The notes under the pieces are model-generated. The model had not been told where the DNA came from. It saw nothing but the letters and a program-made list of their open reading frames with translations, and did not search any database. A stretch of DNA of 64,000 bases from Caldilineae bacterium (GTDB lineage Bacteria > Chloroflexota > Anaerolineae > Epilineales > Epilineaceae). Below, piece after piece: positions 12,606-63,897 of this stretch. Made by a program: the position numbers and the translations under genes. Location: NCBI GenBank assembly GCA_020634625.1, contig JACKBJ010000001.1, positions 217,276 to 281,275 of the forward strand, in the 5' to 3' direction. Each line of letters starts with the position of its first letter. The first letter of the stretch is position 1.

Positions 12606-14174
12606 TCAGGGTTGCACGCCGCGGTCCAGTCGCGGCAGCAGGATGCGGCCCGATTGCGCGGGCGGCGTCTCGCCGGGCGGCCGGGTGGTCGGGGCAGGCG
12701 GGGTCGCTTGCGGCGTGCCCGACGGCGCGCTCTCGGGTCCGAGGACCCGTAGCTCGTCCCCCAGCGCGGGGTCGCTTGCCGCAAAGTAGAGCTGCTCGGC
12801 CTGGGCCAGCAGTGCGCTTGGATCCGAACCGAGGGCTCCGGGCCGGAGGTCGGACACCACCCGGGTCTCGGCCGTCGTGCCGTCGGTCACCCAGAGCTCG
12901 CGGCCGAGCCCTTCGCGATCCGCGCTGAAGTAGAGCCGATCGCCCAAGGGGCTGGCCTCGGCCGGAAAGGAGCTGGCGACCTCGCCCGGGTTGACGTCGG
13001 CAAGCAGCCGCGTGCCGGGTTCGGTACCATCCGAGACCCAGGGCTCGATGCCGTAGCTGAAGTGAAACGCTTGAAAGAAGAGCAGGTTGCCGAAGCTGAC
13101 GAAGCCAGCCGGGACCGAGCCGCGACCACGCATGGCGCTGGCGAACACCGCGTGCGTCCCGTCCGGCTCGCCGTCGGTGACCCAGAGCTCGCCGCCACCG
13201 CCATCGTCGCCGCCGAAGTAGAGGCGGCCTGCATGCGGTGCGAACCCCTGATTGAAGCCTCGGCCGCCGGGGTTGAGATCCCGCAGCACGCGGGTTCCCG
13301 CCGCGCTTCCGTCCGAGATCCAGGGCTCCATGTTGGCGCCGCCGGGCGCATCGCTGGCCGCGAAGACCAAGCGGCCGTTGAAGCCCACGAAGCTGTCCGG
13401 CTCCGAGCCGTCCAGACCGGCCGCGATGTCGGCCAGCATCCGAGTTCCTTCCGGACTGCCGTCCGAAAGCCAGGGCTCGATGCCGGCTTCGTCGTTCTCG
13501 GCGGAGAAGGCCAGACCCAGGGGGGTCGACCTGAGGTGCGCCGGCAGCGAGCCGGCGGGCCCATCCACGATGTCGGCAAGCATGCGGGTGCCCTCGGCCG
13601 TCCCATCGCTCACCCACAGCTCCTCGCCGTTCTCCCCGTCATCGCCGGTGAAGAAGAGGCGCCCGTCATGCTCGGTGAGGAACGCTGCCAGGCCCCAGGC
13701 CTCGGGTCCCTCGGTGACGTCGGCCAGCAATCGCGTCCCGGTCGCGCTGCCGTCGCTCGTCCAGATCTCGGGACCGTGCTTGCCGTCGTCGGCCAGAAAG
13801 TAGACCCGGTCGCCCACCCGGGTGAACCGCGTGCGCGCGTCGGCCGGAACCGGGTTGGCCTCGCCCTCGCCACCTGGGCTAGGGTTGGAGCCCTGGGGGC
13901 CGGGCTGGATGTCGGCGAGCATGCGCGTGCCCGCGGCACTGCCGTCGGAGATCCATAGCTCGCGGCCATGCACGCCATCGTCGGCGCTGAAGATCACGCG
14001 GTCGTCGAAGCCCGTCATGAAGCGCGGTTCGGAGGACTCGGGACCCGGCCGCAAGTCCAAGGCGACGATCTCGGCGCCTGACTCGGCTGGCTTGCCCCGC
14101 GTCAGCGCGCCAGTCGGGCCCAGGCAACCGAGGAGCAGCCCACTCAGGATCAGGCATCCGCGCGAAACGTGCAT
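12606..14174 (-). CDS. ELWxxDG(T)-repeat beta-propeller lipoprotein
   Basis: ATG 14174 (residue M22 of the track ORF). Lipobox LLLGC. Eight repeats of the form G.ELW.SDG.. GTR.LADI. PT-rich tail ending ILLPRLDRGVQP. Confidence 0.8.
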   Translation of the reverse strand: MHVSRGCLILSGLLLGCLGPTGALTRGKPAESGAEIVALDLRPGPESSEPRFMTGFDDRVIFSADDGVHGRELWISDGSAAGTRMLADIQPGPQGSNPSPGGEGEANPVPADARTRFTRVGDRVYFLADDGKHGPEIWTSDGSATGTRLLADVTEGPEAWGLAAFLTEHDGRLFFTGDDGENGEELWVSDGTAEGTRMLADIVDGPAGSLPAHLRSTPLGLAFSAENDEAGIEPWLSDGSPEGTRMLADIAAGLDGSEPDSFVGFNGRLVFAASDAPGGANMEPWISDGSAAGTRVLRDLNPGGRGFNQGFAPHAGRLYFGGDDGGGGELWVTDGEPDGTHAVFASAMRGRGSVPAGFVSFGNLLFFQAFHFSYGIEPWVSDGTEPGTRLLADVNPGEVASSFPAEASPLGDRLYFSADREGLGRELWVTDGTTAETRVVSDLRPGALGSDPSALLAQAEQLYFAASDPALGDELRVLGPESAPSGTPQATPPAPTTRPPGETPPAQSGRILLPRLDRGVQP

Positions 14175-14233
14175 CGGGCTCCGACCTCCTGGCCGGCGCA
14201 GGCAGCGCTCGGCATCGTTCGTCTCGGTCCGCA

Positions 14234-16283: not shown

Positions 16284-18611
16284 CTAGCGCCGGCCCCAGA
16301 AGACCTCCGGCGCGCAGGGGATCAAGCGCGCGATCGCCTCGTATATGGCGGCCAGGTCGGCGCTGTTCGGCGACAGGCGCAAACGGGTCCGATCGCCGGC
16401 GAGCGCCTCGAGATAGTCGAGGTCGAGGTCCTGGCCGAGGCCGACGATGTACAGCGCGACCCCCGACTCTCGGATCGCTCGAGCCAGCGCCTGCGGCGGC
16501 TCGGGATCGCCTACCTGAATCCCGTCGGTCAACAGCACGATCATCGGCGAGTTGTCGGGCTTGCGCTCGGGTCCCTCGAGGACGCGCCGTGCCGCCGCGA
16601 GGCCGCGATCGATCCGCGTCCCGTAGGCCACGTCGATTCCGCGGATGGCCGCCTCGAGCGTCGGCCCGTCACCGCTGAGCGGGCTGATGACCTGCGCCTC
16701 CTCGCTGAAGACCACCAACCCGATCTGGTCGCTGCCCAGCTCGACGGCGCGCAGGAAAGCCAGCGCCGCCTGCCGCGCCGCGTCGATCTTCTCGCCGGCC
16801 ATGCTCGACGAGTTGTCGAAGACGAGCACGGTGTCGGCGTTGGCCCACTCGGGCGCGCAGTGCTCGCGCAGCAGGATCGGAAGATAGGCCGGACGCAAGA
16901 CCCGCGGCGTCGCCGAGGGCTGCTCGGTCGACATCGGGCTGGGTGTGCGGGTCGGCGTGCGGGTCGGCGTGTCGGTGGCCGTCGCGGTCGCGACCGGGGT
17001 GTCGGAGGCGGTCGGGGTGTTCGAGGGCAAAGGCTCGCTCGGTGTCGGCGCCTGGGGCTGGTAGATGCACAGCACCTCCGTGTCGCCCAGGCTGCCGATG
17101 TCGCTGAGGAAGTTCCAGATGTATAGCGTATCGACCCAGGGCCCGTGCGCCCAGGCCCGTAACGGGCCACCGCCCGTGACGTCGTAGGGCTCCGTGAAGC
17201 CGGGCGCGCCAACGGTCTCTTCACTGACCTGATTTCCGCCGGCCAGCTCGTACCAGTAGACCCCCTCGTAGGCCAGCGTATCCTTGGCCGCTCGCTTCAC
17301 CCCATAGCTGGTCGCGACGACTCGATCCGTGTCCGGAATCCAGGCCACGCCGCCCGTGGCCGACTCGTCGTGCGACAGGGCGTTGGTGTCGTCAAAGTGC
17401 TCAGGGCGCGGCACGAACTTGTAGGTTCCGTCGGACAGGGTCCCGTGGATGATGTCGCCGAATCCCAGACCCTCCTCCGACATCAGCGTGTCGCCGGGCT
17501 TGGTGAAGGGCGTCGGCGTCGGGGCGCCGCCGTGCGTGCTGGTCGCATAGCGCTCGTCGTCGCGGATCCACTGCAGCGAGATGTCCCAGTGCCGGTCCCG
17601 CAGGCCGACCACCATCACGCCGGTGTTGGTGATGGCCAGATCGGTCAACATCGGCTGGGGCCGATGCATCTCGGGCCGTTGCTGCGCGTTCAGCTTCCGA
17701 TCGATCTCGTCGGACCAGGGCGACCAGCTGGTCTGGCTGCCGACCACGTTGCGCAGGCGAACGCCGTCCCGGGGATACCGCATGTTGATGACCGCGACCT
17801 GCTGCATGTCGGAGCCATCGGGACGCGAGCTGTAGACGATGCTGACCATGTTGGCGGCCGAGCCGCGGCTGTTGACGACGCCGTGGTAGAGCCGTCCGGA
17901 GTACCAGGCCAAACCGAATGGCCGCCCGCCGACCGGGCCCCAGTCCTCCGACATCGCCCCCATGTCGAACTCGCTCAGGATGGCCTTGGTCGCGAGATCG
18001 AAGCGGATGATCTTGCGATTGTTGAGGTTGACGGCAAACAGCTCGGTGCCGGCGTCGTTGACCTCGAGGTCGCCCAGCGCCACCTTGCCGACCTCGCGCG
18101 CCGCGCCATCGTCCTGGTCGCGCTCGCCATCGGCCATGCGGCCGCCGATCTGCGTGCCGGCATCCGGGACCTGGGTCCAGAGCTCGGTCACGCCCGTGTC
18201 GAGGTCGGTCCGGTAGATCCCGCCCGCGCCACCCGGTCCGTAGGGCAGCCCCCGCTTGCGATAGGCCCCGGAGTAGATCGCCGGCTCGCCGCGGCTATAC
18301 GCCAGGCCGAAGACCGACCCGGTGTCGGCGAAGCTGGCGAGCTCGAACTGTGGGTTGTCGCTCGGCGTATCCCGGAAGAGGATGACCGAAGGCGCGGCCG
18401 TGTCCGGGCGACGACCGCGACCCGATTGGGCGCGAAAGGCCGAGGCGACATAGTAGGGGTCGCCGTCGACACAGGCCTGGTCGAAGTCGGGCGCGCCAGC
18501 CGTCAGGCGATCCAGGTTGACGATGCCCAGCGCGATGGCGAGCACGAAGACGAAGGTCAGGATCCGCAGCCCACGATGGGCGGCTCCGGTCGAGGGCGTG
18601 GCGACGGTCAT
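16284..18611 (-). CDS. Secreted protein: unknown ~560-aa N-terminal domain, PT linker, C-terminal vWA cassette
   Basis: ATG 18611 (M88 of the track ORF). N-terminal anchor LRILTFVFVLAIALGIV. MIDAS FDNSSSM plus LLTDG. Terminal IPCAPEVFWGRR. Confidence 0.8.
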   Translation of the reverse strand: MTVATPSTGAAHRGLRILTFVFVLAIALGIVNLDRLTAGAPDFDQACVDGDPYYVASAFRAQSGRGRRPDTAAPSVILFRDTPSDNPQFELASFADTGSVFGLAYSRGEPAIYSGAYRKRGLPYGPGGAGGIYRTDLDTGVTELWTQVPDAGTQIGGRMADGERDQDDGAAREVGKVALGDLEVNDAGTELFAVNLNNRKIIRFDLATKAILSEFDMGAMSEDWGPVGGRPFGLAWYSGRLYHGVVNSRGSAANMVSIVYSSRPDGSDMQQVAVINMRYPRDGVRLRNVVGSQTSWSPWSDEIDRKLNAQQRPEMHRPQPMLTDLAITNTGVMVVGLRDRHWDISLQWIRDDERYATSTHGGAPTPTPFTKPGDTLMSEEGLGFGDIIHGTLSDGTYKFVPRPEHFDDTNALSHDESATGGVAWIPDTDRVVATSYGVKRAAKDTLAYEGVYWYELAGGNQVSEETVGAPGFTEPYDVTGGGPLRAWAHGPWVDTLYIWNFLSDIGSLGDTEVLCIYQPQAPTPSEPLPSNTPTASDTPVATATATDTPTRTPTRTPSPMSTEQPSATPRVLRPAYLPILLREHCAPEWANADTVLVFDNSSSMAGEKIDAARQAALAFLRAVELGSDQIGLVVFSEEAQVISPLSGDGPTLEAAIRGIDVAYGTRIDRGLAAARRVLEGPERKPDNSPMIVLLTDGIQVGDPEPPQALARAIRESGVALYIVGLGQDLDLDYLEALAGDRTRLRLSPNSADLAAIYEAIARLIPCAPEVFWGRR

Positions 18612-19041
18612 GGCGTGCTCCGCTGGCGTTCGGGCCGCCACGCCGGACGAGGGCGGGACGGCGCTGCAACCCGGTTGTCGATGTGCGTGCTGCCAGAGCG
18701 GTTGCATCCGACCCGTACGTCCTCTGAAGCGGCTGGCCGTCCTGGCCTGGCCAACACGCTGCAACCGTGAGTCGCCTCCGCGGCCCGCCCCTTGAATAGC
18801 CGAGGTCTTGCGAGCGGTCAAATGCGGGGCTCCCCGGCGCCGCGATGGATGGTGCCATGCGAACGCTCGCATCGCATCGCAAGTGGCTCGGGTCTGGCCG
18901 AGATCTCACCACCTCCAGGACACGAGGGCCGAAGGGGCTGCGGCCCGACACCCCGGGATCGGAACTTTCATCCACCCTGCGGTGTATGGATGGTCGAGAC
19001 CACCATTCAGCACGCGTCTGCATGACCAGGGAGCGACCGCG

Positions 19042-29002: not shown

Positions 29003-31812
29003 CACCGACGCCGCTGGACCAGGAAGGGCAGCGTGATCTCGAATCCGGGCTCGATCGCCCCGCCGACATAGCGATACAGCCCATCGACGGTCGCGATCAG
29101 CAGCTCGTTGGCCGCGGTGCAGGCCAGGGCCCCCACGGGCGCCGCCGGCAGCGGCGTCAAGCCGGGTCGCAGCCGCTCGCCGAAGGCCTGGCCATCCCAG
29201 CGCGCGACGATGCCGCGCTCGGTGCCCAGCCAGAGCCCACCGTCCGGGCACCAGGCCGCCGCGCGAATCTGATCCAGCGATGGATCGAGCGGGCTGCCGG
29301 GCAGACCGGGTCCCGCCAGAGCTTGAGGAGGCAGCCAGTCGCCGCTGGCCGGGACCCAGGTGTTCATCCGCAGCTCCGGCACCACCCGGTCGCCGGCACG
29401 CGACTGGATCTCGAGCCAGGTGAAGGCCACCGGTCGACCGAACGCGTCACGCCCCGCCGCCGTCGCATAGCCCGCGTTGCGCAGCTGGGTCGGATCGGCC
29501 GGCTGGCCGAGGCCGGGGTAGTCAATCGGCCGGGGGTCTGGCAGCGCGTAGAGGGCGTTGGCATCGATCACGAAGGCGTCCGGATTGCCCTGCGCGGGCG
29601 AATCCGGCCGCCCACCACTGGTCTCGGCGCCCGGCGTGTCCAGGACGACGCTCGGGCCGCCGCCTGGCGAGCCGAGCAGGGCCGCGTCCCGAAGCGCCCC
29701 GCGGCCCTCCGGCCTCGCCGGCGCCAGATCGATTCCCAGCCCGAGCCGGCCTCGCTCGTCGAAGGCGATCAGGCTGGTCATGGCGCAAGCGCCGGGCCGG
29801 CCGCAGTCCACCTCGGCCCGTCGCGGGACCCAGGCGCGTCCGGCGCGGTCCAGGAGGACCCGGTCCAGCAGCTGCATGCCGCCGTCCGGCGCGGCCTGGT
29901 CGCGTGCGAGCACGCGCAATCCGGTCGCCTCGAGATACCGCGCGCCGATCCAGAGCCGGCCGGCCGGATCGATCGACCAGAGCCCGGGCAAGGACCCGGC
30001 GCGGCGCGCGAGGGCGGCCGCGCGCTCGAACAGGTCGGCCAGCCCTTCGAAGGCCTGCGTGGATCCGTCCGGAGCGATCCGGACGATGCGTTCGCGGCCC
30101 GCGCGTCCCCGCAGGCGCAGCCAGATGGTGCCGTCCGTCCCCTGTCCGAGGGCCAGGACCTGCACGTCCGGACCAACACCGCGCGCGTCGAAGGGTCGCG
30201 TGAAGCCCCCGGATGGGTCGAAGATCGAGTCCGTGGCGGTCGGGCTGGGCCGCGGGGGCGGCAAGGGTTCGTCGGTCGCAGCTGGCTCGGGCGTGGCGGG
30301 CTGACGGCTGTCCGGGAGGCCCGAGAAGATCAGGGCCGCGTGGAGGACCTCGGCCAGGGCGGTCGTCGGCGCCGCTGAATAGGCGGCGATGGCCGGGCTG
30401 CCGCTCGTGCCATCGGCCAGGAAGCCGAGCGTCGCGACCGGGCCATTGGCGCGGATGCGCATCCAGCCCGTGAACCCCTCGCCGGCAGACGCGAATTGGT
30501 CATCCTCGAGATCGATCGCGACGAAGCCACGGGCCGCCACACGGGTTTGCAGGCTGGCGATCGGCTTCTCGCCACCGCCGGCGGCAAAGAGCTCGAGCGA
30601 GACGCTCGCCAGCGCTCCGCCGCCTTGGATCGTCAGCCAGCTGGCGCGACCGGGTTGGCCGCGCCAGACGATCGGCAGCACCGCGTCCTGGGCCGGCTCG
30701 ACCGCGGCATAGGCGGCGCCGGCCTTGACCTGCGGCCAGCGCAGCGCGACCAGCGCGGCTAGCGTGTCGGTCGCCCCTGCGACGCCGGCATGCGCGCCCT
30801 GACCGAGGTCGGTCAGATCGTCCAGGTCGAGGCGGACCGCGCGCCCGGCCTCCAGATCGCCCAGCGCAGCCTGGGACGCCGGCTGCCCGTCGGCATCGAA
30901 CAGGCTCAGCTGCAGCCGCTTGGCCGATGCGGCGCTGGCCTGAAGCATCAGAGCCGCCGTGCCGGGACCGATGACCCGCCGCAGCGCGACCGGCGCCGTC
31001 AGCGCCTGCTTGGGCAGCTCGGGCAGCATCGCCGCCGCTGCGCCGCCGCCAAGGCCGGCCGATCCGGGGTAGAGCAACGGGCCGTAGCCCGAGCCGTCCA
31101 GACCCGCTCGCGAGAAGGCCACCGAGAGCAGGCGGCCCTCGGACTCGATCCATGCCGAGCCCCGCTGTCCCGGGGCGAGGCCCGGCAGGGTCTCCAGGCG
31201 CCAGAGCGTGGTCTGACCCGGCGAGAGCCTGCGGCTGCAGGCCTCGCCACAGCCGCGCAGCTCCTGGCCCTGCTCGTCGAACAGGCGCAGCTGGAGCCGG
31301 GCCGGCGCGTCGCCGAGAAGGCGCGCCAGGATGCGGCTCGCGTCGGCGTCGCTTCGCGGCAGGGTCCAGGCCGGCAAGAGGCTCGACGCGGAGGCCGCGG
31401 CCTCGGGCTGCGCCAGCAGCGTCGCCGGGTGCCCCGAGCCGTCCCAGTCGCTCAGCGCGAGCGCCGCCACCGGTCCACCGCTGGCCTGCACCGTCGCCGA
31501 TAGCGCGCAGTCCGAGGGTAGCCCGGAGCTGCCACCAGGTCCGGTGTCGAAAAATCCGATGGCGCCGGGCTCGAGCACTCGGCCGTCACGCCAGGCCGGG
31601 ATCCGCGGATCGCATGCGCCAACGACCGGCGAGAAGCTCACGGCGACGTCCACCGGCGCCGCGTTCGGGTTGGTCACGACCAAGAACGCTTGCGGCGCGG
31701 TCTGGTCGGGCCCGGCGCTCGGCGCGCGCAGTCCGCCCTGGCGCATCAGGGCGGCCAGGACCAGCACAGCGATCAGCGCCAACGCGGCAAGCAGCGATCT
31801 CGAGCCGGACAT
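29002..31812 (-). CDS. Secreted protein: four ~100-aa beta-sandwich-like repeats, P-rich linker, propeller-like C-terminal half
   Basis: ATG 31812, 6 nt after an AGGAGG; ATG 31818 lies too close to that element. Signal LLAALALIAVLVLAAL. Ends ITLPFLVQRRR. Confidence 0.7.
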   Translation of the reverse strand: MSGSRSLLAALALIAVLVLAALMRQGGLRAPSAGPDQTAPQAFLVVTNPNAAPVDVAVSFSPVVGACDPRIPAWRDGRVLEPGAIGFFDTGPGGSSGLPSDCALSATVQASGGPVAALALSDWDGSGHPATLLAQPEAAASASSLLPAWTLPRSDADASRILARLLGDAPARLQLRLFDEQGQELRGCGEACSRRLSPGQTTLWRLETLPGLAPGQRGSAWIESEGRLLSVAFSRAGLDGSGYGPLLYPGSAGLGGGAAAAMLPELPKQALTAPVALRRVIGPGTAALMLQASAASAKRLQLSLFDADGQPASQAALGDLEAGRAVRLDLDDLTDLGQGAHAGVAGATDTLAALVALRWPQVKAGAAYAAVEPAQDAVLPIVWRGQPGRASWLTIQGGGALASVSLELFAAGGGEKPIASLQTRVAARGFVAIDLEDDQFASAGEGFTGWMRIRANGPVATLGFLADGTSGSPAIAAYSAAPTTALAEVLHAALIFSGLPDSRQPATPEPAATDEPLPPPRPSPTATDSIFDPSGGFTRPFDARGVGPDVQVLALGQGTDGTIWLRLRGRAGRERIVRIAPDGSTQAFEGLADLFERAAALARRAGSLPGLWSIDPAGRLWIGARYLEATGLRVLARDQAAPDGGMQLLDRVLLDRAGRAWVPRRAEVDCGRPGACAMTSLIAFDERGRLGLGIDLAPARPEGRGALRDAALLGSPGGGPSVVLDTPGAETSGGRPDSPAQGNPDAFVIDANALYALPDPRPIDYPGLGQPADPTQLRNAGYATAAGRDAFGRPVAFTWLEIQSRAGDRVVPELRMNTWVPASGDWLPPQALAGPGLPGSPLDPSLDQIRAAAWCPDGGLWLGTERGIVARWDGQAFGERLRPGLTPLPAAPVGALACTAANELLIATVDGLYRYVGGAIEPGFEITLPFLVQRRR

Positions 31813-31961
31813 GCCCATCCTCCTACGCCGATCGGCTTTCGCGACCGGCACGCGCATTGCGGGGCCCGAAGCCCTCGCTTGAGAACGCCAGCAGGCGCTC
31901 GCCGTTACGGCTGGCAACGCGCGCGACCCGGAACCGAGCGCGAGCCCCTGCCAAGCCCACG

Positions 31962-35004: not shown

Positions 35005-38000
35005 CTATTCGCCCCGCCGCAGCATGGGCAGGTAGACCGTCGGCTGCGACTCCCGAATGCGCAGCTCGAAGGCGCCGATGTCGCAGCGAGGCGTGCCGTC
35101 GCCATCGCCGTCGACGCTGCGGGCGATGCCCCGCTGGTCGGTCTCGAGGACCGCGGCGCCGTCGGCGCCGCGACAGCCGCTCGGGTCGCCCGCATCGACG
35201 GCCGGGCTGCCGGTCAGCAGGGCCATGGTCCGGCTGGCGCCGCCGTTGGCCTGCAGCTCGGACAGGCCCGGGTCCTGATCGGGCCGATCGCCGGAGGAGC
35301 GCAGCCCACAGCTGTTGTCGCCATCGAGGTTGTAGCCGGCCGACGTGATCTGCCCCAGGCAGTCCGCGCCGTTCGCGTTGAGGGCCACGATGCTGTCGCG
35401 CAGCTCCACGCGTCCGGCCGCGCCGACGCGCTGGATGCCGGCGGCGCCGCCGGTCTCGCCCTCGTTGGCGACGACCCGGTTGTGCGCCAAGGTCACGCTG
35501 GCCAGCGCCACGTCGCCCCCGCCGCTGTAGATGGCGCCCCCGAACAGCGCCTGGTTGTCGGTCAGCGTGCTGTTCTCGAGGCGCAGCGTGCCGCTGATCG
35601 CCAGCGCGCCGCCCTGCAGCGCGCTGTTCGAGGCCAGGAGGCTGCGCTCGATCGAGGCGGACCCGCCGACGGCCACCGACAGCGCGCCGCCCTGGCTGTC
35701 GCCCCCCTCGACCTGGTTGCGCTCCAGCGTGACCTCGGAGAGCGTGGCGACGTTCTCGACCCGCAGGCCGCCGCCATGACGACCAGCGGCATTGCCGGCC
35801 AGGGTGACCCGCTCGAAGCGGACGCTGCCGTTGTCGCCGGTGTGCGCGGCGCCGCCATCGCGAACCGCCGAGTTCGGCCCGACCCGACCGCCGACGACCG
35901 TGACGCTCGCGCCGTCGGCGTGGATGGCGCCGCCGTCCAGGGTCGCCGTGTTCTGCTGGACGGTGCAATCGGTGAGCGTCGCCTGCCCGCTCCGGCCATA
36001 CACCGCGCCGCCGAAATTGGCGCTGTTGAGCGCCAGCTCGACGCCACGAACCTGCAGATCGGCGCCATCGCGGTAGAAGTACAGCGCACCGCCGAAGTTG
36101 CCCCGATTCTCCCGCAACCGACCGCCCTGGATCGTGACCCGCGCGCCGTTCGAGATCAAGCCGCCGCCGGTGCCATAGTCGCCTTCGGCGATGTTCTCGA
36201 TGATCGCGACGTCGGTCAGGCTGCCGGTACCCGGCACCGTGTCGCTGGAGCCGACATAGACCCCGCCGGCGACATCGGCGCGATTGCCCTGAACGGTGCC
36301 GCCCTGCATCGTCAACGACCCGCCCAGCAGGAAGACGCCCGCCCCGTACTCGGCGCGGTTGCCGACGAAGCTGCTGTTGCTCAGGTTGACCGCCGCGCCG
36401 CGCGCCGAGATGCCGCCGCCGTAGCGCCCGCCGTTACCCGTGATCACGCTGTCCTCGACCGTCAAGGAGCCGGCCGCGTAGATGCCGCCGCCGTCCACGG
36501 CGCTGGTGTTGGCGCTGAGGCGGCTGCGCCGCACGACGGCGATGCCGCCTTCGTCCACCAGGATGCCGCCCCCGCGCGTCAAGCTCACGTTGGAGTCGAT
36601 GTCGCAGTCCTCGACCGTCAGACGGGCGGCCGTGTAGACGCCGCCGGCACGGGGATCGGAGTTGAAGCTGATGCGCGAGGAACGCAGCGTGAGGTCGGCA
36701 TCGGGCGCATAGACGCCCGCACCGCGCGTCAAGCTGAGCCCGCGGACGGTCACCGCGACCGCTCCGCGGATCGTGAGCACGGGCCCCTTGCGGTTGCCGT
36801 CGATGACGCTGAAGGGTGCACCCGCGCCCGCCAGCGTCAAGGCCTTGCCGTCGATCACCACGTTCTCGACGTAGGTGCCGGCCTGGATCGCGATGGTGGC
36901 CCCGGAGCGCGCCGCGTCGACGGCGGCTTGGATCCGGCTGTGGTCGCATCCGTTTTCGCAGACCGTCAGCTCCCCCGCCACCGGATCCGGTCGCTGTGCC
37001 GTCGGCGTGGCCGATACCCGTTCGTCGAAGTACTCGAAGGATCCGATGTCGCAGATCGATCGCCCATCGCCCTTGCCGTCGACCGGACGCGGCTGACCGC
37101 GCTGGTCGGTGGTCAACAGCGTATCGTCCGGCGCGGTGCAGCCTTCCGGATCGCCCGCGTCGATCGCCGGGCTCGCGGCGGTCAAGGCGATGGTCCGCGT
37201 CAACCCGCCGTATTCGCCCATCGGGAGGGTGCGCGGGTTGGTGTTCGTCATGTCGCCGACCTCGTCGAAGCTGCAGGTGTTGCCGCTATCGAGGTTGTGT
37301 CCGGCCGAGGTGACGGTGCCGAAGCAGCTGGAAGGCGCGTTGTTGCCCACCAGCGAGTTGCGCAGCTGGATCACGTCGTTGGAGAAGATCGCGCCGAAGC
37401 CGCCCGAGTTGTCGGCGACGGTGACGTTGGTCATGAGCCCCGAGCCGGCGTTGATGTACATGCCGCTGCCGCCGAAGTCGGCCACGTTGCCCGACATCGT
37501 GCTGTTGGACAGAATCGTCGTGTCGACGTACTGGTAGATCGCGCCGCCGTTCTCGCCCGACCGATTGCCGCTGAGCGTGCTGCGGCCGATGTTGACGAAG
37601 CCGGTGTTGTAGATGCCGCCGCCGCGCGGCGTGGGCCCGCCCTCCACCACGTTGTCGGAGAGATCGACGGTGTCGACGCCGAGCCGGGCGGTGTAGCCAT
37701 TGAAGATGCCCGCCCCGAACTGTCGGGCGCGATTGCCGGTGATCGCTCCGCGTGCGATGGTCATGCCGCCGTAGCTGTTGAGGACGCCGCCACCGAGCTC
37801 GGCCTCGTTGTCGCGGACCACGACGTCGGTCAAGGTCATCGTGCCGCCGTAGTTGAAGATCCCGCCGCCGTAACCGGTATCGGGGTTGCCAGTGGCGTTG
37901 CCTTCGACGACGCAGTTGGTCACGAAGGCCGAACCTTCGTTGTAGATGCCAGCCCCCGAGTCGGCCCGGCCCCCGGTGATGGTGAAGCCGGCGATCGTGA

Positions 38001-38614: not shown

Positions 38615-38716
38615 GGTCGATGTCGGAAGCGCGTGCGGCGCCAACCGCCGAATGGGGTTGAACTCCGAACCGCGATCCGCCGGACTGAACTCAACGTTAC
38701 GGAGGGGATTCCAACC

Positions 38717-40201: not shown

Positions 40202-40207
40202 TCGTGT

Positions 40208-40373: not shown

Positions 40374-42170
40374 ATGAAGCGAGCCATGCATCTCGCCCTC
40401 ACCGCCCTCGCGCTCGGGATCGCGCTGACCGCCCTGGCGCCGGCCAGGCCTGCCCTGGCCCAGGCGGTGGTTTATGTCAATACGACCGAGGACAGCCGCA
40501 TCGACACCTTCGAGCCCTGTGTGCCCGGCGGCCGATGTGGGCTGCGCAGCGCCATCCGCACCGCCCAGCTCGAGGTGGCCGGCGCCATCGTGCGGGCCTG
40601 CTTCGATCCGGCCGAGGTGCCGGGCGCGCGGGCCTGCCCGCCCGGCGCGGTCCCGATCCGCAAGTCGGATCCCGGCTACGACCCGCGCATCGACCGCTGG
40701 GTGATCAAGCTGGCCGATCCCAACCCGATCGAGATGAACGTGCGGCAGACCTTCGTCGACCTGCGCCAGGGCCTCGACTGGAAGAGCCCCGCCGACAACA
40801 AGTTCGTCATCGATGCCTCGGGCCTCGACATCGACCACGTCTTCGCCATGGAAAGCGATCGGAACATCCTGGCCGGCTTCGAGATTCGAGGCAGCTTCAC
40901 CCGCTCGGCAATCCTCATCCGCGGCGGTCGAACCCGCGACGAGTCCCGATTCAACCAGGTCGGCCCCGGCGTGATCTTCGCCAACATGCCGGCGGGATCG
41001 GGCGTCCACATCGTCTCGAAGGACACCAACCAGAATCGCATCATCGGCAACTGGTGCGGCATCACGGGCGATGGAACCCAGGTGAGCCCGCTGACGGACG
41101 ACTGCGTCTATCTGGAGCAGGGCACGACCAAGAACGTCATCGGCGACGCCTCCCCCGGCGGGCGCAACATCTTCGCCGCGACCAGCGAAGGTGCCGGCGT
41201 GCGCATCGAGGACAGCGAGTTCGTCGGGCTGGACGTGCGCACCCGCGACAACGTCATCGAGTACAACTGGTTCGGTCTGGATGCCGCCGGCGAGGCGACC
41301 GAGGGTCTCGATTCCGGGCTGGTCCTGGTCTGGTCGCCCAACAACAAGGTCAGCCACAACGTCATCTCCAACAGCCGCAACGCCGGCGTGGCGGTCTTCA
41401 ACGTCCTGACCGGAACCCTGATCAGCGACAACATCATCGGCGGTGGCCCCGACGGATCGACCTGTCGTGGCAACAAGGGCGACGGCGTCTTCATGATCTC
41501 GGGTCCGAGCCTCTCGCGCATCGAGCGCAATCGCGTGGTCTGCAATGCCGGCAACGGCGTCACCCTGCAGGGACCGAACACGGTCGACAACGTCATCAGC
41601 GAGAACTCGATCCGCTCGGTCGGCGGCAAGCCCATCAGCCTGCTCTCGGATGCCAACCGGAAGATCAAGCCGCCGACCCTGGGCGACGTGTCGGAGACCT
41701 CGCTGACCGGCACCGCCTGCGCCGGCTGCACGGTCGAGGTCTTCAGCGACAACGATCGGCAGGCCCAGTACTTCGAAGGCCGCGTCGTCGCCGACGCGTC
41801 GGGAGCCTTCGTGCTGGACAAGCCCGAAGGCTGGCAGGGTCGCTACGTCACGGCATCCCAGTCCCGCGACGGCAACGGTTCGGAGCTGGCGACCGCCAAG
41901 CTGGTCGGCAACATCGGGCGTCGAACGCCGACCCCCACGGGTGCCGTGCCCACCTGGACGCCGGCGGTCAGCGAGACGCCGGGTCCTTCGGCCAGCCCGA
42001 GCCCGACGCCGCGTCCGCAGCTGACCTTCACGCATCGCATCCACCTGCCGATCCTCGCCCGGGGCCAGGCGGACCTCGGCCGGGCCGGCGTCGCGGTCCC
42101 ATCGGCGCGGCAGGGCGCCGACCGGTCCTTCGAGCTCCTACGGCTGGCCAGGGCTCTGTTCCTGCGCTGA
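40374..42170 (+). CDS. Secreted right-handed beta-helix (NosD/PbH1-like) protein
   Basis: ATG 40374. Signal LALTALALGIALTALAPARPALAQA. Repeats N.I..N.. (NRIIGNWCG, NVIEYNWFG, NVISNSRNAGVAVF, NRVVCNAGNGVTL). PT linker, then IHLPILARGQ plus a 33-aa tail. Confidence 0.8.
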   Translation: MKRAMHLALTALALGIALTALAPARPALAQAVVYVNTTEDSRIDTFEPCVPGGRCGLRSAIRTAQLEVAGAIVRACFDPAEVPGARACPPGAVPIRKSDPGYDPRIDRWVIKLADPNPIEMNVRQTFVDLRQGLDWKSPADNKFVIDASGLDIDHVFAMESDRNILAGFEIRGSFTRSAILIRGGRTRDESRFNQVGPGVIFANMPAGSGVHIVSKDTNQNRIIGNWCGITGDGTQVSPLTDDCVYLEQGTTKNVIGDASPGGRNIFAATSEGAGVRIEDSEFVGLDVRTRDNVIEYNWFGLDAAGEATEGLDSGLVLVWSPNNKVSHNVISNSRNAGVAVFNVLTGTLISDNIIGGGPDGSTCRGNKGDGVFMISGPSLSRIERNRVVCNAGNGVTLQGPNTVDNVISENSIRSVGGKPISLLSDANRKIKPPTLGDVSETSLTGTACAGCTVEVFSDNDRQAQYFEGRVVADASGAFVLDKPEGWQGRYVTASQSRDGNGSELATAKLVGNIGRRTPTPTGAVPTWTPAVSETPGPSASPSPTPRPQLTFTHRIHLPILARGQADLGRAGVAVPSARQGADRSFELLRLARALFLR

Positions 42171-42437: not shown

Positions 42438-44318
42438 ATGCGCCCGTGGAAGCGCGCCGCGATCGTCGCGATCGGTCTTTTCATGGCGGCTGCCGTTGGC
42501 CTCGGCGCGCTTCCGCGGCACGAAGCCGTCCGGGCGCAAGGCCAGCCGGGGGAGCCACCGAGCGCCTGCGGGGTTCGGATCACCGAGACCGCCCAGTCCC
42601 CCGCGTGGATCTGCGCGCCGCTGGGCGTGACCGTCACGCTGCAGGTCACGCGTCCCCAGGCGCTGCCCCTGCACGTCGTCTTCGTCGTGGCGAAACACCT
42701 GTTGATGTACGATCACCTGGACGAGGCCAAGGCGGCCGCCCGAGACGCGGCCAATGCGCTGAGCTTTGGTCCTGGCACCCGCGTCGGTCTGGTGACGCTC
42801 AGCGTTCAGGGCAGGACCGAGCTCGAGCTGAGCGACGACAAGAGCAAGGTGCTGTCGGCCATCAACCGCATCAAGCTCGACCAGGTTCGGCCCGAAGCCC
42901 GCTACTATGACTGGCTCGGCGACGCCGAGGACCTGCTGGCCGAAGCGCGGACGACGGCCCTGTCCCCGGTGGAGGTCATCGTCCTGATCTCGACCGGCTG
43001 CCCGAATGGGTACGAGAGCTACTGTCAGCGGCAGAAGGCGAGCGCCAGCCGGGTTCAGGGCAAGGGCATCACGGTCGTCGGCATCTGCAATCCCAACGCC
43101 ACCATCCCGCCGCCGGCCCTGCCGGCGGGCCACTGCAACGACATCCGCGGCCTGGCGAGCAGCGGCAGCTACTACGACCTGCGCCAGGCAGCCCGGGCGG
43201 CGGCCCGGCTTCAGGAGCTGGAGCGCGAGGGCGCGGCCATCGAGCCCCGCGCGCTCGCGCTGACCGAGCTCCTCGCGCCCGGCTTCGCCTACGTCCCCGG
43301 ATCCGGAAGGCCCGAGCCCAAGGTGAACCCTTCGCGGCTGCTGTTCGAATGGTCGGGCCTGTCGGCCGATCAGGTGGTGAGCGCGACCTATCGGCTGCAG
43401 CCGGACGCCGAGGGCCTTCGATCCCTGCGCCTGTCGGGCTCGAGCGCCATCGTCCTCGACAGCCTGCAGCGCGCTTCCGCCTCCGTCCGCGTGCCGACCC
43501 GCACCCTCGACATCCGTCCTTGCCTCGTCGCCAGCGCGACGCCCACGACGCCTCCGACCCCCACGCCAGCGCCCAGCCCGACGACCCGCATGTCGCCGAC
43601 CGCGAGCCCGACGGCGCGCCCGTCGGCGCGCCCGACGCCGAGCCCCGAGCCTCAGGCCAGCCCGACGCCGGAGCCCCGCGCGCTCTACCTGCCCATCCTG
43701 ACGCGTCGGCTGTGCAAGCCCGCACGGGCTCACTCGGACATCGTGCTGCTGATCGACACAAGCTCCAGCATGGCCCAGCCGGCCGGCAGCTTCGGGAGCC
43801 GGCTGGATGCCGCACGCGACGCGGCGCGACGCTTCATCGACTTGCTCGCGCTGGATGGGGCCGGGGACCAGGTCGCGCTGGGCGGCTTCAACGCCGAACC
43901 CACCCTCGGCCCGCTCAGCGATCGCCGGGACGCGGCGCTCCGCAGCCTCGATTCCGAGATCCGTCTCGGTTCGGGCACGCGCATCGACCGGGCGCTGGAG
44001 GCCGCGCGGTCCGAGCTGTCGAGCGCGCGCGCACGCGCGGGCAGCGCTCCGGTGATCGTCCTGCTCACCGATGGACAGCCGGAAGGTGGCAGCGAGTCGG
44101 CCACGCTCGCTTCGGCGCGCGAAGCTCGACGGGCGGGCATCGACATCTTCGCCGTCGGCTTCGGCGACGCGGTCAACGGCGACTTCCTCCGACAGCTGGC
44201 CTCGCGGCCCGACGCCTATCTGCACGCGCCCGACGCCGAGGCGCTGCGCGGAGTCTACGAGTCGATCGCCGGCCAGCTGCCCTGCCCGGGCGGCCTCGTA
44301 TGGGAGCTGGGGCGATGA
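42438..44318 (+). CDS. Secreted double-vWA protein (MIDAS-less N-terminal vWA + beta-sandwich + PT linker + terminal vWA cassette)
   Basis: ATG 42438. Anchor AAIVAIGLFMAAAVGLGAL. First vWA has VVFVVAKHLLM instead of DxSxS. Second has IDTSSSM and LLTDG. Ends [13 protein letters not shown]. Confidence 0.8.
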   Translation: MRPWKRAAIVAIGLFMAAAVGLGALPRHEAVRAQGQPGEPPSACGVRITETAQSPAWICAPLGVTVTLQVTRPQALPLHVVFVVAKHLLMYDHLDEAKAAARDAANALSFGPGTRVGLVTLSVQGRTELELSDDKSKVLSAINRIKLDQVRPEARYYDWLGDAEDLLAEARTTALSPVEVIVLISTGCPNGYESYCQRQKASASRVQGKGITVVGICNPNATIPPPALPAGHCNDIRGLASSGSYYDLRQAARAAARLQELEREGAAIEPRALALTELLAPGFAYVPGSGRPEPKVNPSRLLFEWSGLSADQVVSATYRLQPDAEGLRSLRLSGSSAIVLDSLQRASASVRVPTRTLDIRPCLVASATPTTPPTPTPAPSPTTRMSPTASPTARPSARPTPSPEPQASPTPEPRALYLPILTRRLCKPARAHSDIVLLIDTSSSMAQPAGSFGSRLDAARDAARRFIDLLALDGAGDQVALGGFNAEPTLGPLSDRRDAALRSLDSEIRLGSGTRIDRALEAARSELSSARARAGSAPVIVLLTDGQPEGGSESATLASAREARRAGIDIFAVGFGDAVNGDFLRQLASRPDAYLHAPDAEALRGVYESIAGQLPCPGGLVWELGR

Positions 44319-63500: not shown

Positions 63501-63897
63501 CCACGTAGATCCGGTCTCGGCCCGCGTCCGCCGCCAGGTGCTGGGGTGAGCACAGGGCATCGATCGGCGCGCGCGCTGGCTCGCACATCGCCAGACCCTC
63601 GATCAGCACCGAGACGCTGCCGTCGGGGGCGACCCGCGTGATTCGCGGCAGGCTCGGATCGGCATCGGCGATCAGGAGCCCACCGTCCGGCAGGGTCTCG
63701 AGACCCGCCATCCGCGCCCAGGCGTCGGAGGGTCGCCGATCCTCGGGCATGGGCCAGGTCTCGGCCAGGGCATAGGCGCCTTGGCCTTGATCCGGGCTGG
63801 CTTCGACGTGGCTTCCGGCGATCAGGGTCAGCAAGAGAAGCGGCACGAAGGCAAATGCCCGGCGCCTACCGCCTCCGAAACGTCCCAGGTCGCGCAT
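60514..63897 (-). CDS. Secreted NHL-repeat propeller protein with internal vWA + beta-sandwich and terminal vWA cassette
   Basis: ATG 63897 with GGGAGAG 5 nt upstream. Signal FAFVPLLLLTLIAGSHVEA. NHL-like repeats (DRIYVVDGARDALLVY, GNVYVIDTRAARLLKL). MIDAS LDASGSM and LDVSSSM. Ends IPCDAGLFWGRR. Confidence 0.85.
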   Translation of the reverse strand: MRDLGRFGGGRRRAFAFVPLLLLTLIAGSHVEASPDQGQGAYALAETWPMPEDRRPSDAWARMAGLETLPDGGLLIADADPSLPRITRVAPDGSVSVLIEGLAMCEPARAPIDALCSPQHLAADAGRDRIYVVDGARDALLVYTMAGVWLRSQIGIDGAQGVAVSANGTVHVSSASSGQIHRFDADGGVLETWQVLDPQPGASLLGGMDIDADGNVYVIDTRAARLLKLNAIGKLASVHEGFAGSARLLDVAVMAVPNRPSLRAFWLATNQGLMYSEERTSLGALNAVGTLSAVALGPGDRLFAAWTGFSAALSELLVFDSRTARTATPERVGALPHPLGLNRGPDRITMGLDDALLVLDRTLRVQRLRSDGTPIGQWLDGDLIDVGAAADGRIYGTDGASLARFAAPGTGLHLTERARWPSGAAGFLSNLALTPSGTVLGLDIGRRQLRRFDSASGAESAPVQLSPADAPSHWSDLAVDASGFAWVLDRRSGEVTIVDAESGTVTRTLALGRAAQRLGLRPDGEPLLLDASGRIWHFAATGSLRGVFDASRRDLDPSSRPIDLAVLSDDSVLVIDRAAGSVSRWAWDPTAQPERPDLGQECVYSHDKLALPETVVLGQPVEIRLLAEGECAQRRLPALDVMLVLDASGSMAGERIRLVQQAALDFTRALDLNRSRVGLVSFSQSAQLVSPLTDDESDLWRSLRGLRPFGASRIDLGLELAFDTWQASRRPGVGTIFILLSDGRSEAAPALAAADRIKQAGVELFTVGTSTLAEDRALIEAIASSPDHSYVSEEPTFLFDVLDAIARRVAATRLFERAIVRDEIPANMRFVPGSAVPAASWDPSSRILEWQLADVPFAGFDLRFSVEPQATGDWPTNVQAVADLIDGFGQPDRITFPVPRVQVIAPTPTPSPSPTATPTPEPAALYLPLLLHEICVPEQRSTDAVLVLDVSSSMRGAKLTAAKEAAKAFVDLMQPARDRVALVAFDHEARLASPLGSDLTALRAAIDALGTRQGTAIDQGLAAAYDELRSSRRRPDATPALILLTDGQQPDGQSAILDLGGRMCEAGVQVYAIGLGDAEAVDFQLLRRLACRPAMAFLAPQVGDLRRIYESIAAEIPCDAGLFWGRR

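What the first reader, a model, noticed from the sequence alone, without database searches (positions are those of the whole stretch)
16284..16889. Conserved ~200-aa terminal vWA cassette framed by YLPxLLxxxC and PCxxxx[FV]W..R-stop, appended to three unrelated proteins
Cassettes at 16284..16889 (-), 43680..44318 (+) and 60514..61128 (-) terminate three proteins with different N-terminal architectures. Those architectures are an unknown domain, a MIDAS-less vWA with a sandwich domain, and an NHL propeller with vWA. The geometry is conserved in all three. The Pro of the tag is exactly 21 residues before the first MIDAS Asp (FDNSSSM, IDTSSSM, LDVSSSM). A Cys sits 7 residues after that Pro (CAPE, CKPA, CVPE). 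A second Cys lies 9-10 residues before the stop ([37 protein letters not shown]). This suggests a disulfide-clamped, self-contained module with its own terminal W-x-x-R motif. Codon-level identity between copies is low, so they are old paralogues rather than a recent duplication. Proteins that end right after the tag look like the same junction without the cassette, so domain shuffling appears to occur at the tag.
Basis: seen in the sequence. Interest (0 to 1): 0.7.

Follow-up and report, generated by a model that had tools for sequence, protein, structure and literature searches.

The report
Disulfide-stapled vWA end-module behind YLP tag
Three secreted proteins of a Caldilineae (Chloroflexota) bacterium end in the same ~200-residue metal-binding adhesion (vWA) domain, probably stapled by a Cys pair and always preceded by a short "YLPxLLR" motif. 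In this lineage the same motif also ends many secreted proteins that have no vWA domain, so the domain is an unannotated variant of a known fold and the motif may be a new surface-protein tag.

Summary
Three C-terminal vWA cassettes (16284-16889 -, 43680-44318 +, 60514-61128 -) share 39-44% identity and the claimed geometry: Pro to Cys1 is 7 residues, Pro to the MIDAS Asp is 21, and Cys2 lies 9-10 residues before the stop.

The geometry holds across the family. Of 123 distant representatives, 103 have Pro-to-Cys1 = 7 and 107 have exactly two Cys. The family is a discrete subfamily (at least 176 bits, against at most 117 for the next vWA group). It occurs in Anaerolineae/Caldilineae MAGs, in several copies per genome, on at least seven N-terminal architectures.

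AlphaFold gives a classical vWA fold (pLDDT 92), closest to collagen VI, PTMP1, CMG2 and vWF A3. The two lineages that lost Cys1 gained an extra Cys next to Cys2, which supports a Cys1-Cys2 staple like that of vWF A1/A3.

The FWGRR tail is a subfamily feature. It co-varies with Glu at Pro+5 of the tag.

The tag is autonomous. It ends five other secreted proteins in this window and about a third of choice-of-anchor Q homologues, where sorting signals normally sit, but it has no TM helix. No Pfam or NCBIfam model covers it.

Verdict: a new variant of a known domain, plus a possibly new tag.

The parts
16284..16889 (-). Cassette 1: tag AYLPILLRE (16863-16889), Cys1 (16857-16859), MIDAS DNSSS (16803-16817), Cys2 (16314-16316), tail APEVFWGRR plus stop
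   Evidence: AF2 gives pLDDT 92.4 and a vWA fold.
16284..18611 (-). Host protein 1. Likely start MTVATPST at 18611, an N-terminal hydrophobic anchor or signal, an N-terminal domain of about 500 aa with no Pfam family, a PT linker, then cassette 1.
   Evidence: Orthologues L001 (70% identical in the cassette) and L002 in Anaerolineae MAGs. The L001 N-terminal part has no Pfam hit.
43680..44318 (+). Cassette 2: tag ALYLPILTR, Cys1 (43713-43715), MIDAS DTSSS (43755-43769), Cys2 (44283-44285), tail [10 protein letters not shown] plus stop
42438..44318 (+). Host protein 2. Signal peptide (MRPWKRAAIVAIGLF...), a MIDAS-less vWA, a sandwich domain, a PT linker, then cassette 2.
   Evidence: (two VWA stretches).
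60514..61128 (-). Cassette 3: tag ALYLPLLLH, Cys1 (61093-61095), MIDAS DVSSS (61039-61053), Cys2 (60544-60546), tail DAGLFWGRR plus stop
   Evidence: The cassette region is 100% identical to P0012 = NCBI MCB9175713.1, a Caldilineae bacterium MAG.
60514..63846 (-). Host protein 3 (1110 aa from the start inferred from the length of the NCBI protein). Signal peptide, NHL propeller, a MIDAS vWA, a DUF11-like sandwich ending FPVPRVQVIAP, a PT linker, then cassette 3. This is the dominant architecture of the family.
35008..35037 (-). Tag-only C-terminus VYLPMLRRGE* of a 1194-aa beta-helix protein (35005-38589). It lies 9 residues after its choice-of-anchor Q domain.
   Evidence: (NF041518, 117 bits).
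56041..56067 (+). Tag-only C-terminus AFLPIVARG(GLGRCP*) of a secreted LVIVD-repeat protein (about 53965-56088), after a PT linker.
   Evidence: The L010 counterpart ends IWLPLVARGGLGRCPSGPGLGQR*.
42039..42065 (+). Tag IHLPILARG, 42 residues before the stop of a secreted NosD/beta-helix protein (about 40374-42170), after a PT linker.
29005..29037 (-). Tag-like C-terminus ITLPFLVQRRR* of the 971-aa protein 29002-31917.
   Evidence: This is a looser match (T in place of the aromatic residue).
12618..12644 (-). Weak tag-like C-terminus ILLPRLDRG(VQP*) after a PT linker, in protein 12606-14237.
   Evidence: Weak match, listed for completeness.

Best explanation
The cassettes belong to a discrete, so far unnamed subfamily of extracellular vWA domains. 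The subfamily is restricted, as far as sampled, to a Caldilineae/Anaerolineae clade of Chloroflexota.

Each cassette is a complete MIDAS-bearing vWA fold. Cys1 lies 14 residues before the MIDAS Asp. Cys2 lies just after the last helix (..IYxxIAxxIPC). The two Cys most likely form a long-range disulfide, as in vWF A1/A3. That bond would make the domain a compact, force-resistant, metal-dependent ligand-binding (adhesion or tethering) head at the far end of secreted multidomain proteins, behind a Pro/Thr-rich stalk.

The [IVA][YF]LP[LIV][LAV]x[RKQ] tag in front of it is a separate short linear motif of this lineage. On its own it ends many other secreted proteins, in the position where C-terminal sorting signals usually sit. 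The tag-plus-vWA unit arose once and was then spread onto different N-terminal passengers.

In one subfamily, which includes all three window copies, a C-terminal PxxxFWGRR tail lies just outside the staple. It co-evolves with Leu(P+3) and Glu(P+5) of the tag. The two flanks therefore probably pack against each other.

Shown: the fold, the MIDAS motif, conservation and geometry, subfamily discreteness, taxonomic range, paralogy, and autonomy of the tag.

Inferred: the disulfide, secretion (signal peptides judged by eye), the adhesive function, tag-tail contact, and any sorting role of the tag.
For: Fold and MIDAS:
- Pfam VWA hits.
- AF2 gives pLDDT 92.4 and pTM 0.87.
- Foldseek E-values of about 1e-13 to collagen VI, PTMP1, CMG2, TRAP and vWF A3.

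Family-wide geometry:
- aromatic-L-P in about 106 of 123 representatives
- Pro to Cys1 = 7 in 103
- Cys1 to Asp = 14 in 90
- exactly two Cys in 107

Discreteness: cassette-type hits score at least 176 bits and the next vWA group scores at most 117 bits. Source names are only generic. No NCBIfam model reaches its cutoff.

Disulfide:
- 189 of 194 cassettes have the tag, Cys1 and Cys2.
- L005 and L011 lack Cys1 (Cys replaced by Val) and have a second Cys in the tail: IGCSGADYWGGRCGDD*.
- vWF A1 has a long-range N-C disulfide that protects the core from force, and it is flanked by O-glycosylated linkers (PMC9084892, found).

Tag-tail coupling:
- Glu at P+5 occurs in 62 of 65 FWGRR-tailed cassettes against 4 of 81 short-tailed ones (Fisher p = 2e-32).
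- A crude core tree infers about 20 tail changes and 18 Glu changes, mostly together.

Lineage and copy number: loci come from Anaerolineae, Ardenticatenales and Ca. Epilinea MAGs, with 5-6 copies per MAG. The window comes from a Caldilineae MAG.

Old paralogy.

Tag autonomy:
- Five further tag-terminated secreted proteins in the window.
- 12 of 266 called genes carry the tag within 45 aa of the stop, against roughly 0.25 expected from my own estimate based on the shuffle rate.
- 11 of 950 ORFs in the cassette clade, against 1 of 598 and 0 of 247 in other loci.
- 41 of 120 choice-of-anchor Q homologues end in the tag, while others end in TM-plus-basic anchors or nothing.
- L024 has a PT spacer between the tag and Cys1.
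Against: - The Cys1-Cys2 distance could not be measured, because no model coordinates were available.
- AF2 leaves the tag and Cys1 segment (residues 1-20) and the tail at pLDDT about 65-71, with no regular structure. Packing of tag against tail is therefore not predicted with confidence.
- Tag-tail covariation could still be largely phylogenetic. The tree was UPGMA on identities.
- No ligand is known and there is no experimental data for any member.
- The tag also occurs near an N-terminus (L001 14832-16430) and in front of a non-vWA module (L012). It is therefore not strictly a C-terminal signal.
- Taxonomic restriction rests on 80 loci chosen through the cassette itself.
Confidence: 0.7

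Rival explanations
1. The tag is a C-terminal sorting or processing signal. A dedicated enzyme cleaves or attaches the protein at the tag. What follows it, whether a 0-40 residue tail or the whole vWA cassette, would then be a removable pro-region or retention module, analogous to the LPXTG, PEP-CTERM or T9SS C-terminal domain.
For: - The tag sits exactly where PEP-CTERM-like TM anchors sit in other choice-of-anchor Q proteins.
- It is strongly enriched at extreme C-termini of signal-peptide proteins.
- It is lineage-restricted and occurs many times per genome. Eight tagged genes lie in this 64-kb window.
- The tag is predicted as coil or low-confidence structure, as expected for a linear motif.
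Against: - No TM helix or basic membrane-retention segment follows the tag. Such a segment is defining for all known sortase, exosortase, archaeosortase, rhombosortase and myxosortase signals.
- No candidate processing enzyme was identified.
- The Pro-to-Cys1 spacing is near-invariant and tag residues co-vary with the vWA tail. That fits a tag that stays attached to the vWA domain.
- The tag also occurs near an N-terminus and internally.
Confidence: 0.2
2. The tag is simply the conserved N-terminal boundary strand of this vWA subfamily. Tag-only C-termini would then be remnants of cassettes lost by deletion or truncation.
For: - The tag is present in 191 of 194 cassettes at near-fixed spacing.
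- One locus (L011 3154-4842) shows a cassette with an internal deletion right after the tag and Cys1.
Against: - Tag-only ends are conserved at the extreme C-terminus (0-6 residue tails) in 41 of 120 distant choice-of-anchor Q homologues.
- Orthologous tails are conserved between genomes..ARGGLGRCP in the window and L010, and ..NWRLGD in L005 and L011. Decay remnants would not be conserved like this.
- There is no room for vWA remnants downstream of the window's tag-only genes. For example, the next gene starts 49 nt after 42170.
- L024 shows that the tag and the vWA domain are separable.
Confidence: 0.07
3. The resemblance is trivial. This would be three ordinary vWA domains whose hydrophobic lead-in and Cys residues coincide by chance or through compositional bias of a 71% GC genome.
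For: - vWA domains are extremely common, with 75,863 representative hits at E<=1e-3.
- PT linkers and Leu/Pro/Arg-rich peptides are favoured at high GC.
Against: - Residue shuffles give 10.5 tag matches against 64 observed.
- The exact spacing recurs in more than 100 representatives at 50% identity or less.
- A clear bit-score gap separates the family from other vWA domains.
Confidence: 0.02

Closest known systems
von Willebrand factor A1 and A3 domains (and the CMG2/ANTXR2 and TEM8 vWA domains)
   Same: - The same fold. vWF A3 matches with TM-score about 0.8 normalised to the target, and CMG2 at about 0.6-0.84.
- Extracellular location.
- A Cys shortly before strand beta-1 and a Cys just after the last helix. 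In vWF A1 these form a long-range disulfide that protects the core against tensile force (PMC9084892).
- Flanking mucin-like Pro/Thr linkers.
- In vWF A1 the N- and C-flanks just outside the disulfide act together as a discontinuous module (PMC8060278). The tag-tail covariation here resembles that.
   Different: - Bacterial origin, and only about 22-24% identity.
- Cys1 lies 14 residues before the MIDAS Asp, against about 11 in vWF A1 (from memory).
- A complete MIDAS is present, whereas vWF A1 and A3 lack a functional one (established knowledge).
- The domain is terminal, so force cannot pass through both ends.
- The YLP tag and FWGRR tail have no counterpart.
- The disulfide is not verified here.
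Bacterial BatA/BatB-type and 'acidobacterial VWFA' (TIGR03436) vWA proteins
   Same: These are the next-best sequence relatives. They are MIDAS vWA domains of envelope proteins.
   Different: - Scores are far below the curated cutoffs: 37-69 bits against 81 for TIGR03436, and 28-66 against 380 for BatA.
- Bat proteins have an N-terminal TM anchor followed by the vWA domain.
- They have no terminal Cys pair, no YLP tag, and are not placed C-terminally behind a PT stalk.
C-terminal protein-sorting signals (LPXTG/sortase, PEP-CTERM/exosortase, MYXO-CTERM/myxosortase)
   Same: - The tag is short, contains Pro, and is followed by a few hydrophobic residues and then basic residues.
- It is lineage-specific and occurs many times per genome.
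- It is found on signal-peptide proteins.
- It occupies the post-'choice-of-anchor' position that these signals occupy.
   Different: - The tag has only 3-4 hydrophobic residues and no TM helix.
- It can be followed by a 200-residue folded domain or lie internally.
- No cognate enzyme is known.
- No Pfam or NCBIfam model matches it.
Mussel PTMP1 and collagen VI vWA domains
   Same: They are the top structural and sequence matches among solved structures. They are extracellular matrix-binding vWA domains with Cys near the N-terminal boundary.
   Different: They are eukaryotic tandem arrays and do not share the tag or tail frame.

Membership tests
vWA domain (Pfam PF00092 / PF13519) | Sequence score above the Pfam gathering threshold | tested here: met
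   Whole-protein scores are 68, 104 and 162 bits against a cutoff of 23.8. The best-matching stretch of each protein lies in the C-terminal cassette.
vWA domain (Pfam PF00092 / PF13519) | Rossmann-like alpha/beta fold with a six-stranded sheet | tested here: met
   AF2 gives pLDDT 92.4 with alternating strand-helix elements. Foldseek probability is 1.00 to many solved vWA domains.
vWA domain (Pfam PF00092 / PF13519) | MIDAS motif DxSxS ... T ... D | tested here: met
   DNSSS/DTSSS/DVSSS, GT(R/A)ID and LLTDG are invariant in all three copies. In the 43-sequence alignment, D32, S34, S36 and D129 are invariant and T98 is at least 90% conserved.
Long-range-disulfide vWA (vWF A1/A3, CMG2 type) | Cys before beta-1 and Cys after the last helix | tested here: met
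   Both are present in 192 of 194 cassettes, and 107 of 123 representatives have exactly two Cys.
Long-range-disulfide vWA (vWF A1/A3, CMG2 type) | The two Cys are actually bonded or within bonding distance | not testable with these tools
   No model coordinates are exposed. Indirect support comes from L005 and L011, which lack Cys1 and have a compensating extra Cys next to Cys2.
BatA/BatB aerotolerance vWA proteins (NF047508 / NF047506) | Score above the curated cutoff, with an N-terminal TM plus vWA architecture | tested here: not met
   Scores are 28-66 bits against cutoffs of 350-380. The architecture differs.
Acidobacterial VWFA domain (TIGR03436) | Score above the curated cutoff of 81.25 | tested here: not met
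   Scores are 37.7, 24.5 and 69.1 bits.
Mg/Co-chelatase ChlD/BchD/CobT (the name given by JGI to homologues) | AAA+ module plus vWA, with a score above cutoff | tested here: not met
   TIGR02442 scores at most 92 bits against 779, and TIGR02031 at most 41 against 500. No AAA+ domain was found in the Pfam scan.
Tripartite C-terminal sorting signals (LPXTG, PEP-CTERM, GlyGly-CTERM, MYXO-CTERM) | Signature motif near the C-terminus of signal-peptide proteins, many per genome | tested here: met
Tripartite C-terminal sorting signals (LPXTG, PEP-CTERM, GlyGly-CTERM, MYXO-CTERM) | A hydrophobic TM helix of about 15-20 residues after the motif, then a basic cluster | tested here: not met
   Only 3-4 hydrophobic residues follow the Pro, then R/K and 0-6 residues, or else a vWA domain.
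Tripartite C-terminal sorting signals (LPXTG, PEP-CTERM, GlyGly-CTERM, MYXO-CTERM) | A co-occurring dedicated processing enzyme | not tested
   This needs whole-genome phylogenetic profiling, and only loci of 21 kb or less were available.
Choice-of-anchor Q domain proteins (NF041518). Applies to the tag-only protein 35005-38589. | Score above the cutoff of 25, with the domain lying just upstream of a C-terminal anchor | tested here: met
   117 bits, residues 1106-1176 of 1194. The tag begins 9 residues later.

The most novel reading that the evidence does not exclude
The [YF]LP[LIV]xx[RK] tag is an undescribed, TM-less surface-display signal of a Caldilineae/Anaerolineae clade. It could be a docking peptide or a processing site. 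The disulfide-stapled vWA cassette would be its dedicated partner module, for example the anchoring or receptor head that tethers tagged proteins, or itself, to the envelope or sheath. Together they would make a new protein-sorting or attachment system. Some tag-only proteins end in ..LRGD*, ..GE* or ..RD*, which would suit MIDAS coordination.
Probability: 0.15. Interest if true: 0.8.

Novelty: new variant of a known kind. Interest (0 to 1): 0.5.

Why it matters
Chloroflexota of the Anaerolineae/Caldilineae type are abundant filamentous bacteria in sludge, sediments and mats. Their envelope and surface-protein biology is almost unknown.

- **vWA subfamily.** A sharply defined, multi-copy, disulfide-stapled MIDAS vWA end-module gives a concrete handle on how these filaments adhere. 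Public annotation calls it only 'VWA domain-containing protein' or 'ChlD'. It is a bacterial parallel to the force-protected vWF A domains.
- **YLP tag.** The tag marks a whole set of secreted proteins. It sits where sorting signals sit yet lacks the TM helix that all known signals have. If it proves to be a sorting or docking signal, it would be a new class. It would also immediately annotate dozens of proteins per genome.

Tried and rejected
- **DNA-level recombination site at the tag.** Rejected. The five window tags differ at synonymous positions, for example TAT CTT CCG ATC against TAC CTG CCC ATC and TAC CTG CCG CTG.
- **Literature searches.** I searched for the peptide strings, for Anaerolineae with vWA, for Chloroflexi sorting signals, and for choice-of-anchor. 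Nothing relevant to the tag or cassette turned up.
- **The search for related loci with the 43-sequence alignment.** The 3-sequence alignment worked.
- **Measuring the Cys-Cys distance.** Model coordinates are not exposed to the sandbox.
- **The look-up of encoding contigs for P0012.** Not on record. The listing of cluster members identified the organism instead.
- **Taxonomy of tag-terminated choice-of-anchor Q proteins.** No organism names were returned.
- **Pfam on the other N-terminal partners and on proteins with internal tags.** Mostly no hits.
- **AF2 of a tag-only C-terminus.** Mean pLDDT was 64.7. The tag appears as a short strand hairpinned to the last AFEL strand at pLDDT about 50-64. 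This is inconclusive.
- **NJ tree with Biopython.** Timed out. It was replaced by UPGMA on core identities.
Full report
**1. The observation**

The three ORFs are 16284-18872(-), 42219-44318(+) and 60514-63930(-). All are genuine coding frames, with GC3 of 0.86-0.88 in a 71% GC window.

Each ends in a Pfam VWA domain. Translation of the exact coordinates gave the following.

| Feature | Cassette 1 | Cassette 2 | Cassette 3 |
|---|---|---|---|
| Tag | AYLPILLRE | ALYLPILTR | ALYLPLLLH |
| Cys1 position | Pro+7 | Pro+7 | Pro+7 |
| First MIDAS Asp | Pro+21 | Pro+21 | Pro+21 |
| Cys2, residues before stop | 9 | 10 | 9 |
| Tail | CAPEVFWGRR* | [11 protein letters not shown] | CDAGLFWGRR* |

The cassettes are 39-44% identical in protein and 55-56% in DNA. 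Only about half of the identical residues use the same codon. The description is therefore accurate.

**2. The cassette is a family, not a coincidence**

A profile of the three cassettes was searched against 1.84 billion representative proteins. It gave 1,454 hits at E<=1e-30.

Of the best 150 hits, 128 carry the domain at the C-terminus with a recognisable MIDAS motif. After removing four multi-vWA proteins and one fragment, 123 were analysed:

- an aromatic-Leu-Pro tag in about 106 (YLP 68, FLP 25, HLP 10)
- Pro to Cys1 = 7 in 103
- Cys1 to Asp = 14 in 90 (12 in 21)
- Pro to Asp = 21 in 74
- exactly two Cys in 107

I pooled these with genomic loci and word-search hits. In that pool, 189 of 194 full cassettes have the tag, Cys1 and Cys2.

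In a profile search of the 5.8-billion-protein set, cassette-type proteins score at least 176 bits. The next group, BatA-like vWA, scores at most 117 bits. Sources name the proteins only 'vWA domain-containing protein', 'Mg-chelatase subunit ChlD' or 'Ca-activated chloride channel homolog'. No NCBIfam model reaches its cutoff.

The C-terminal tail is not uniform:

- 63 of 123 end one residue after Cys2 (IPC[RDEQ]*).
- 28 of 123 have Cys2 nine residues before the stop (IPCPxxxFWG[RG]R*).
- A third class ends PCPxGRHDWxxxWP*.

**3. Where it occurs**

The genome scan found full-length matches only in Chloroflexota MAGs labelled Anaerolineae, Anaerolineales, Ardenticatenales or Ca. Epilinea. The one exception is a MAG labelled only 'bacterium' (UCB3). 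Individual MAGs carry 5-6 copies.

Beyond those loci the hits cover only the generic vWA core (query residues about 20-190). They come from other Chloroflexota, cyanobacteria and other phyla.

The window itself belongs to an NCBI MAG, 'Caldilineae bacterium', on a contig of 351,388 nt. Protein 3 corresponds to MCB9175713.1, annotated 'VWA domain-containing protein'.

**4. Paralogy and partners**

Cassette 1 is 70-75% identical to orthologues in other assemblies (P0001, L001). It is only 39-43% identical to its window paralogues. Cassette 3 behaves similarly. The copies are therefore old paralogues.

N-terminal parts fall into seven similarity clusters. The dominant one is (NHL propeller)-vWA-DUF11-like sandwich. 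Four of the five sampled N-terminal parts from the other clusters, including the type of protein 1, have no Pfam family.

All three window proteins start with a signal-peptide-like or anchor-like hydrophobic segment. This was judged by eye, because no predictor was available.

**5. Structure**

AlphaFold2 with a 43-sequence alignment gives a confident classical vWA fold, with mean pLDDT 92.4 and pTM 0.87.

The first 20 residues (linker, tag and Cys1) and the last 8 (tail) are coil at pLDDT about 65-71.

Foldseek places the model with collagen VI, PTMP1, CMG2/ANTXR2, TRAP and vWF A3, at E-values of about 1e-13 to 1e-12. Sequence profile hits to solved structures agree.

**6. The Cys pair**

Three lines support a Cys1-Cys2 bond.

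- **Conservation.** Both Cys are near-invariant and Cys counts are even, in proteins that look secreted.
- **Compensation.** The only two cassettes without Cys1 are the orthologues L005 and L011, where Cys is replaced by Val. They have an additional Cys 10 residues after Cys2 (IGCSGADYWGGRCGDD*, IGCLDGDYWGRRCGGG*). Cys2 is therefore never left unpaired.
- **Precedent.** In vWF A1 a long-range disulfide links cysteines near the N- and C-termini and protects the core from force-induced unfolding. That domain is flanked by O-glycosylated linkers (PMC9084892, found). Its two flanks form a discontinuous module (PMC8060278).

**7. Tag and tail**

Glu at Pro+5 and Leu at Pro+3 of the tag occur in 62 of 65 and 58 of 65 FWGRR-tailed cassettes. 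In short-tailed ones they occur in 4 of 81 and 13 of 81 (Fisher p = 2e-32 and 6e-20).

On a crude tree of the core domain, the tail changes about 20 times and Glu(P+5) about 18 times, mostly together.

This suggests that the two flanks outside the staple contact each other, for example through a Glu-Arg pair. Phylogenetic inertia is not excluded, and AF2 does not predict the contact with confidence.

**8. The tag is an autonomous motif**

*In this window.* Five further secreted proteins end with the tag and have no vWA domain:

- 35005-38589(-) ends ..TVYLPMLRRGE*
- 53542-56088(+) ends ..AFLPIVARGGLGRCP*
- 40206-42170(+) has ..IHLPILARG followed by 33 residues
- 29002-31917(-) ends ..ITLPFLVQRRR*
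- 12606-14237(-) ends ..ILLPRLDRGVQP* (weak match)

*In the related loci.*

- Among 266 genes called by GC3 in the window plus L001-L039, 12 carry a strict tag within 45 residues of the stop. About 0.25 would be expected by my own estimate from the shuffle rate.
- C-terminal tags were seen in 11 of 950 long ORFs from cassette-clade loci. They were seen in 1 of 598 ORFs from other Chloroflexota loci and 0 of 247 from non-Chloroflexota loci.

*In choice-of-anchor Q proteins.*

- The 35005-38589 protein has an NCBIfam choice-of-anchor Q domain (NF041518, 117 bits) ending 9 residues before the tag.
- Among 120 homologues of that region, a regex screen flags 41 that end in the tag (..IYLPLIMR*, ..FLPLIQR*, ..YLPLALRNN*, ..YLPMIVK*).
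- Others end in TM-plus-basic PEP-CTERM-like anchors, or simply in ..RQSD*.

*Separability and position.*

- In L024 the tag is separated from Cys1 by a short PT spacer.
- In L012 the tag precedes a different, cohesin-like module. In L001 it lies just after a signal peptide.
- Tag codons vary at synonymous sites, so the motif acts at the protein level.
- AF2 of a tag-only C-terminus was low-confidence.

**9. Interpretation**

The best-supported reading is a disulfide-stapled, MIDAS-competent vWA adhesion head. It sits at the tip of a Pro/Thr stalk and is fused once behind a lineage-specific linear motif. The tag-plus-vWA unit was then redistributed among secreted passengers.

The tag behaves like a sorting or docking signal in position, abundance and lineage restriction. 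It fails the defining test of the known tripartite signals because it has no TM helix. I therefore do not file it with them.

The reading that tag-only ends are relics of lost cassettes is contradicted by their conservation.

The most novel reading not excluded is a new tag/vWA surface-display system. It rests on co-occurrence only.

**10. Novelty and score**

The cassette is a new, unnamed variant of a very well-known domain. Its Cys staple has a eukaryotic precedent.

The tag is the more unusual element and deserves a genome-wide census.

Interest is 0.5.

Noticed in passing
window 38633-40201 (+): A secreted vWA protein. Its MIDAS segment (DLVFLVDVSNSM) is separated from the rest of the vWA fold by a Pro/Gly-rich insertion of about 150 aa. 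It ends ..FPTATLELVAP* after a DUF11-like sandwich. That is exactly the junction where proteins 2 and 3 continue with a PT linker, the tag and the cassette. It has neither tag nor cassette.
   Followed up: partly
window 35005-38589 (-), 29002-31917 (-), 12606-14237 (-), 40206-42170 (+), 53542-56088 (+): Five further secreted proteins end in the YLP-type tag without a vWA domain. That makes eight tagged genes in 64 kb.
   Followed up: yes
P0300, P0308, P0327 (homologues of window 35005-38589); window 35008-35037; L027; L005: Several tag-only proteins end in an acidic residue right after the tag: ..YLPL[AVI]LRGD*, ..YLPMLRRGE*, ..YLPVARNGE*, ..LRNWRLGD*. The RGD-like ends suggest a MIDAS ligand, but most tags end simply in R or K.
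   Followed up: no
L024 8765-9406; L011 3154-4842: L024 has the tag (RYFPIAIRNW) separated from Cys1 by a mini PT linker. L011 carries a cassette with an internal deletion, running from the tag and Cys1 straight to ..GLERARGLL..LLLTDG.
   Followed up: partly
L012 1504-5646 (-); L001 14832-16430 (+): The tag occurs in other positions. In L012 a PT linker and LYLPFISQ are followed by a cohesin-like module and another PT linker. In L001 VVYLPLTML lies directly after the signal peptide. Neither protein has any Pfam hit.
   Followed up: partly
P0133, P0150, P0164, P0166 (cassette homologues): A four-Cys variant of the cassette. The MIDAS Thr region reads ..TC[LI]VC[AG]V[DE].. (two extra Cys) instead of GTRID.
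   Followed up: no
window 14234-16252 (-) and 52343-53968 (+): An LVIVD-repeat protein lies immediately downstream of protein 1 in the same orientation, with a 32-nt gap. An M28 peptidase with a PA domain ends where the tagged LVIVD protein 53965-56088 starts.
   Followed up: no
whole window: The window comes from an NCBI MAG 'Caldilineae bacterium' contig of 351,388 nt. HisRS at 46119-47717 corresponds to MCB9175701.1. The MAGs with the closest cassette loci are labelled Anaerolineae or Anaerolineales in their record titles.
   Followed up: yes
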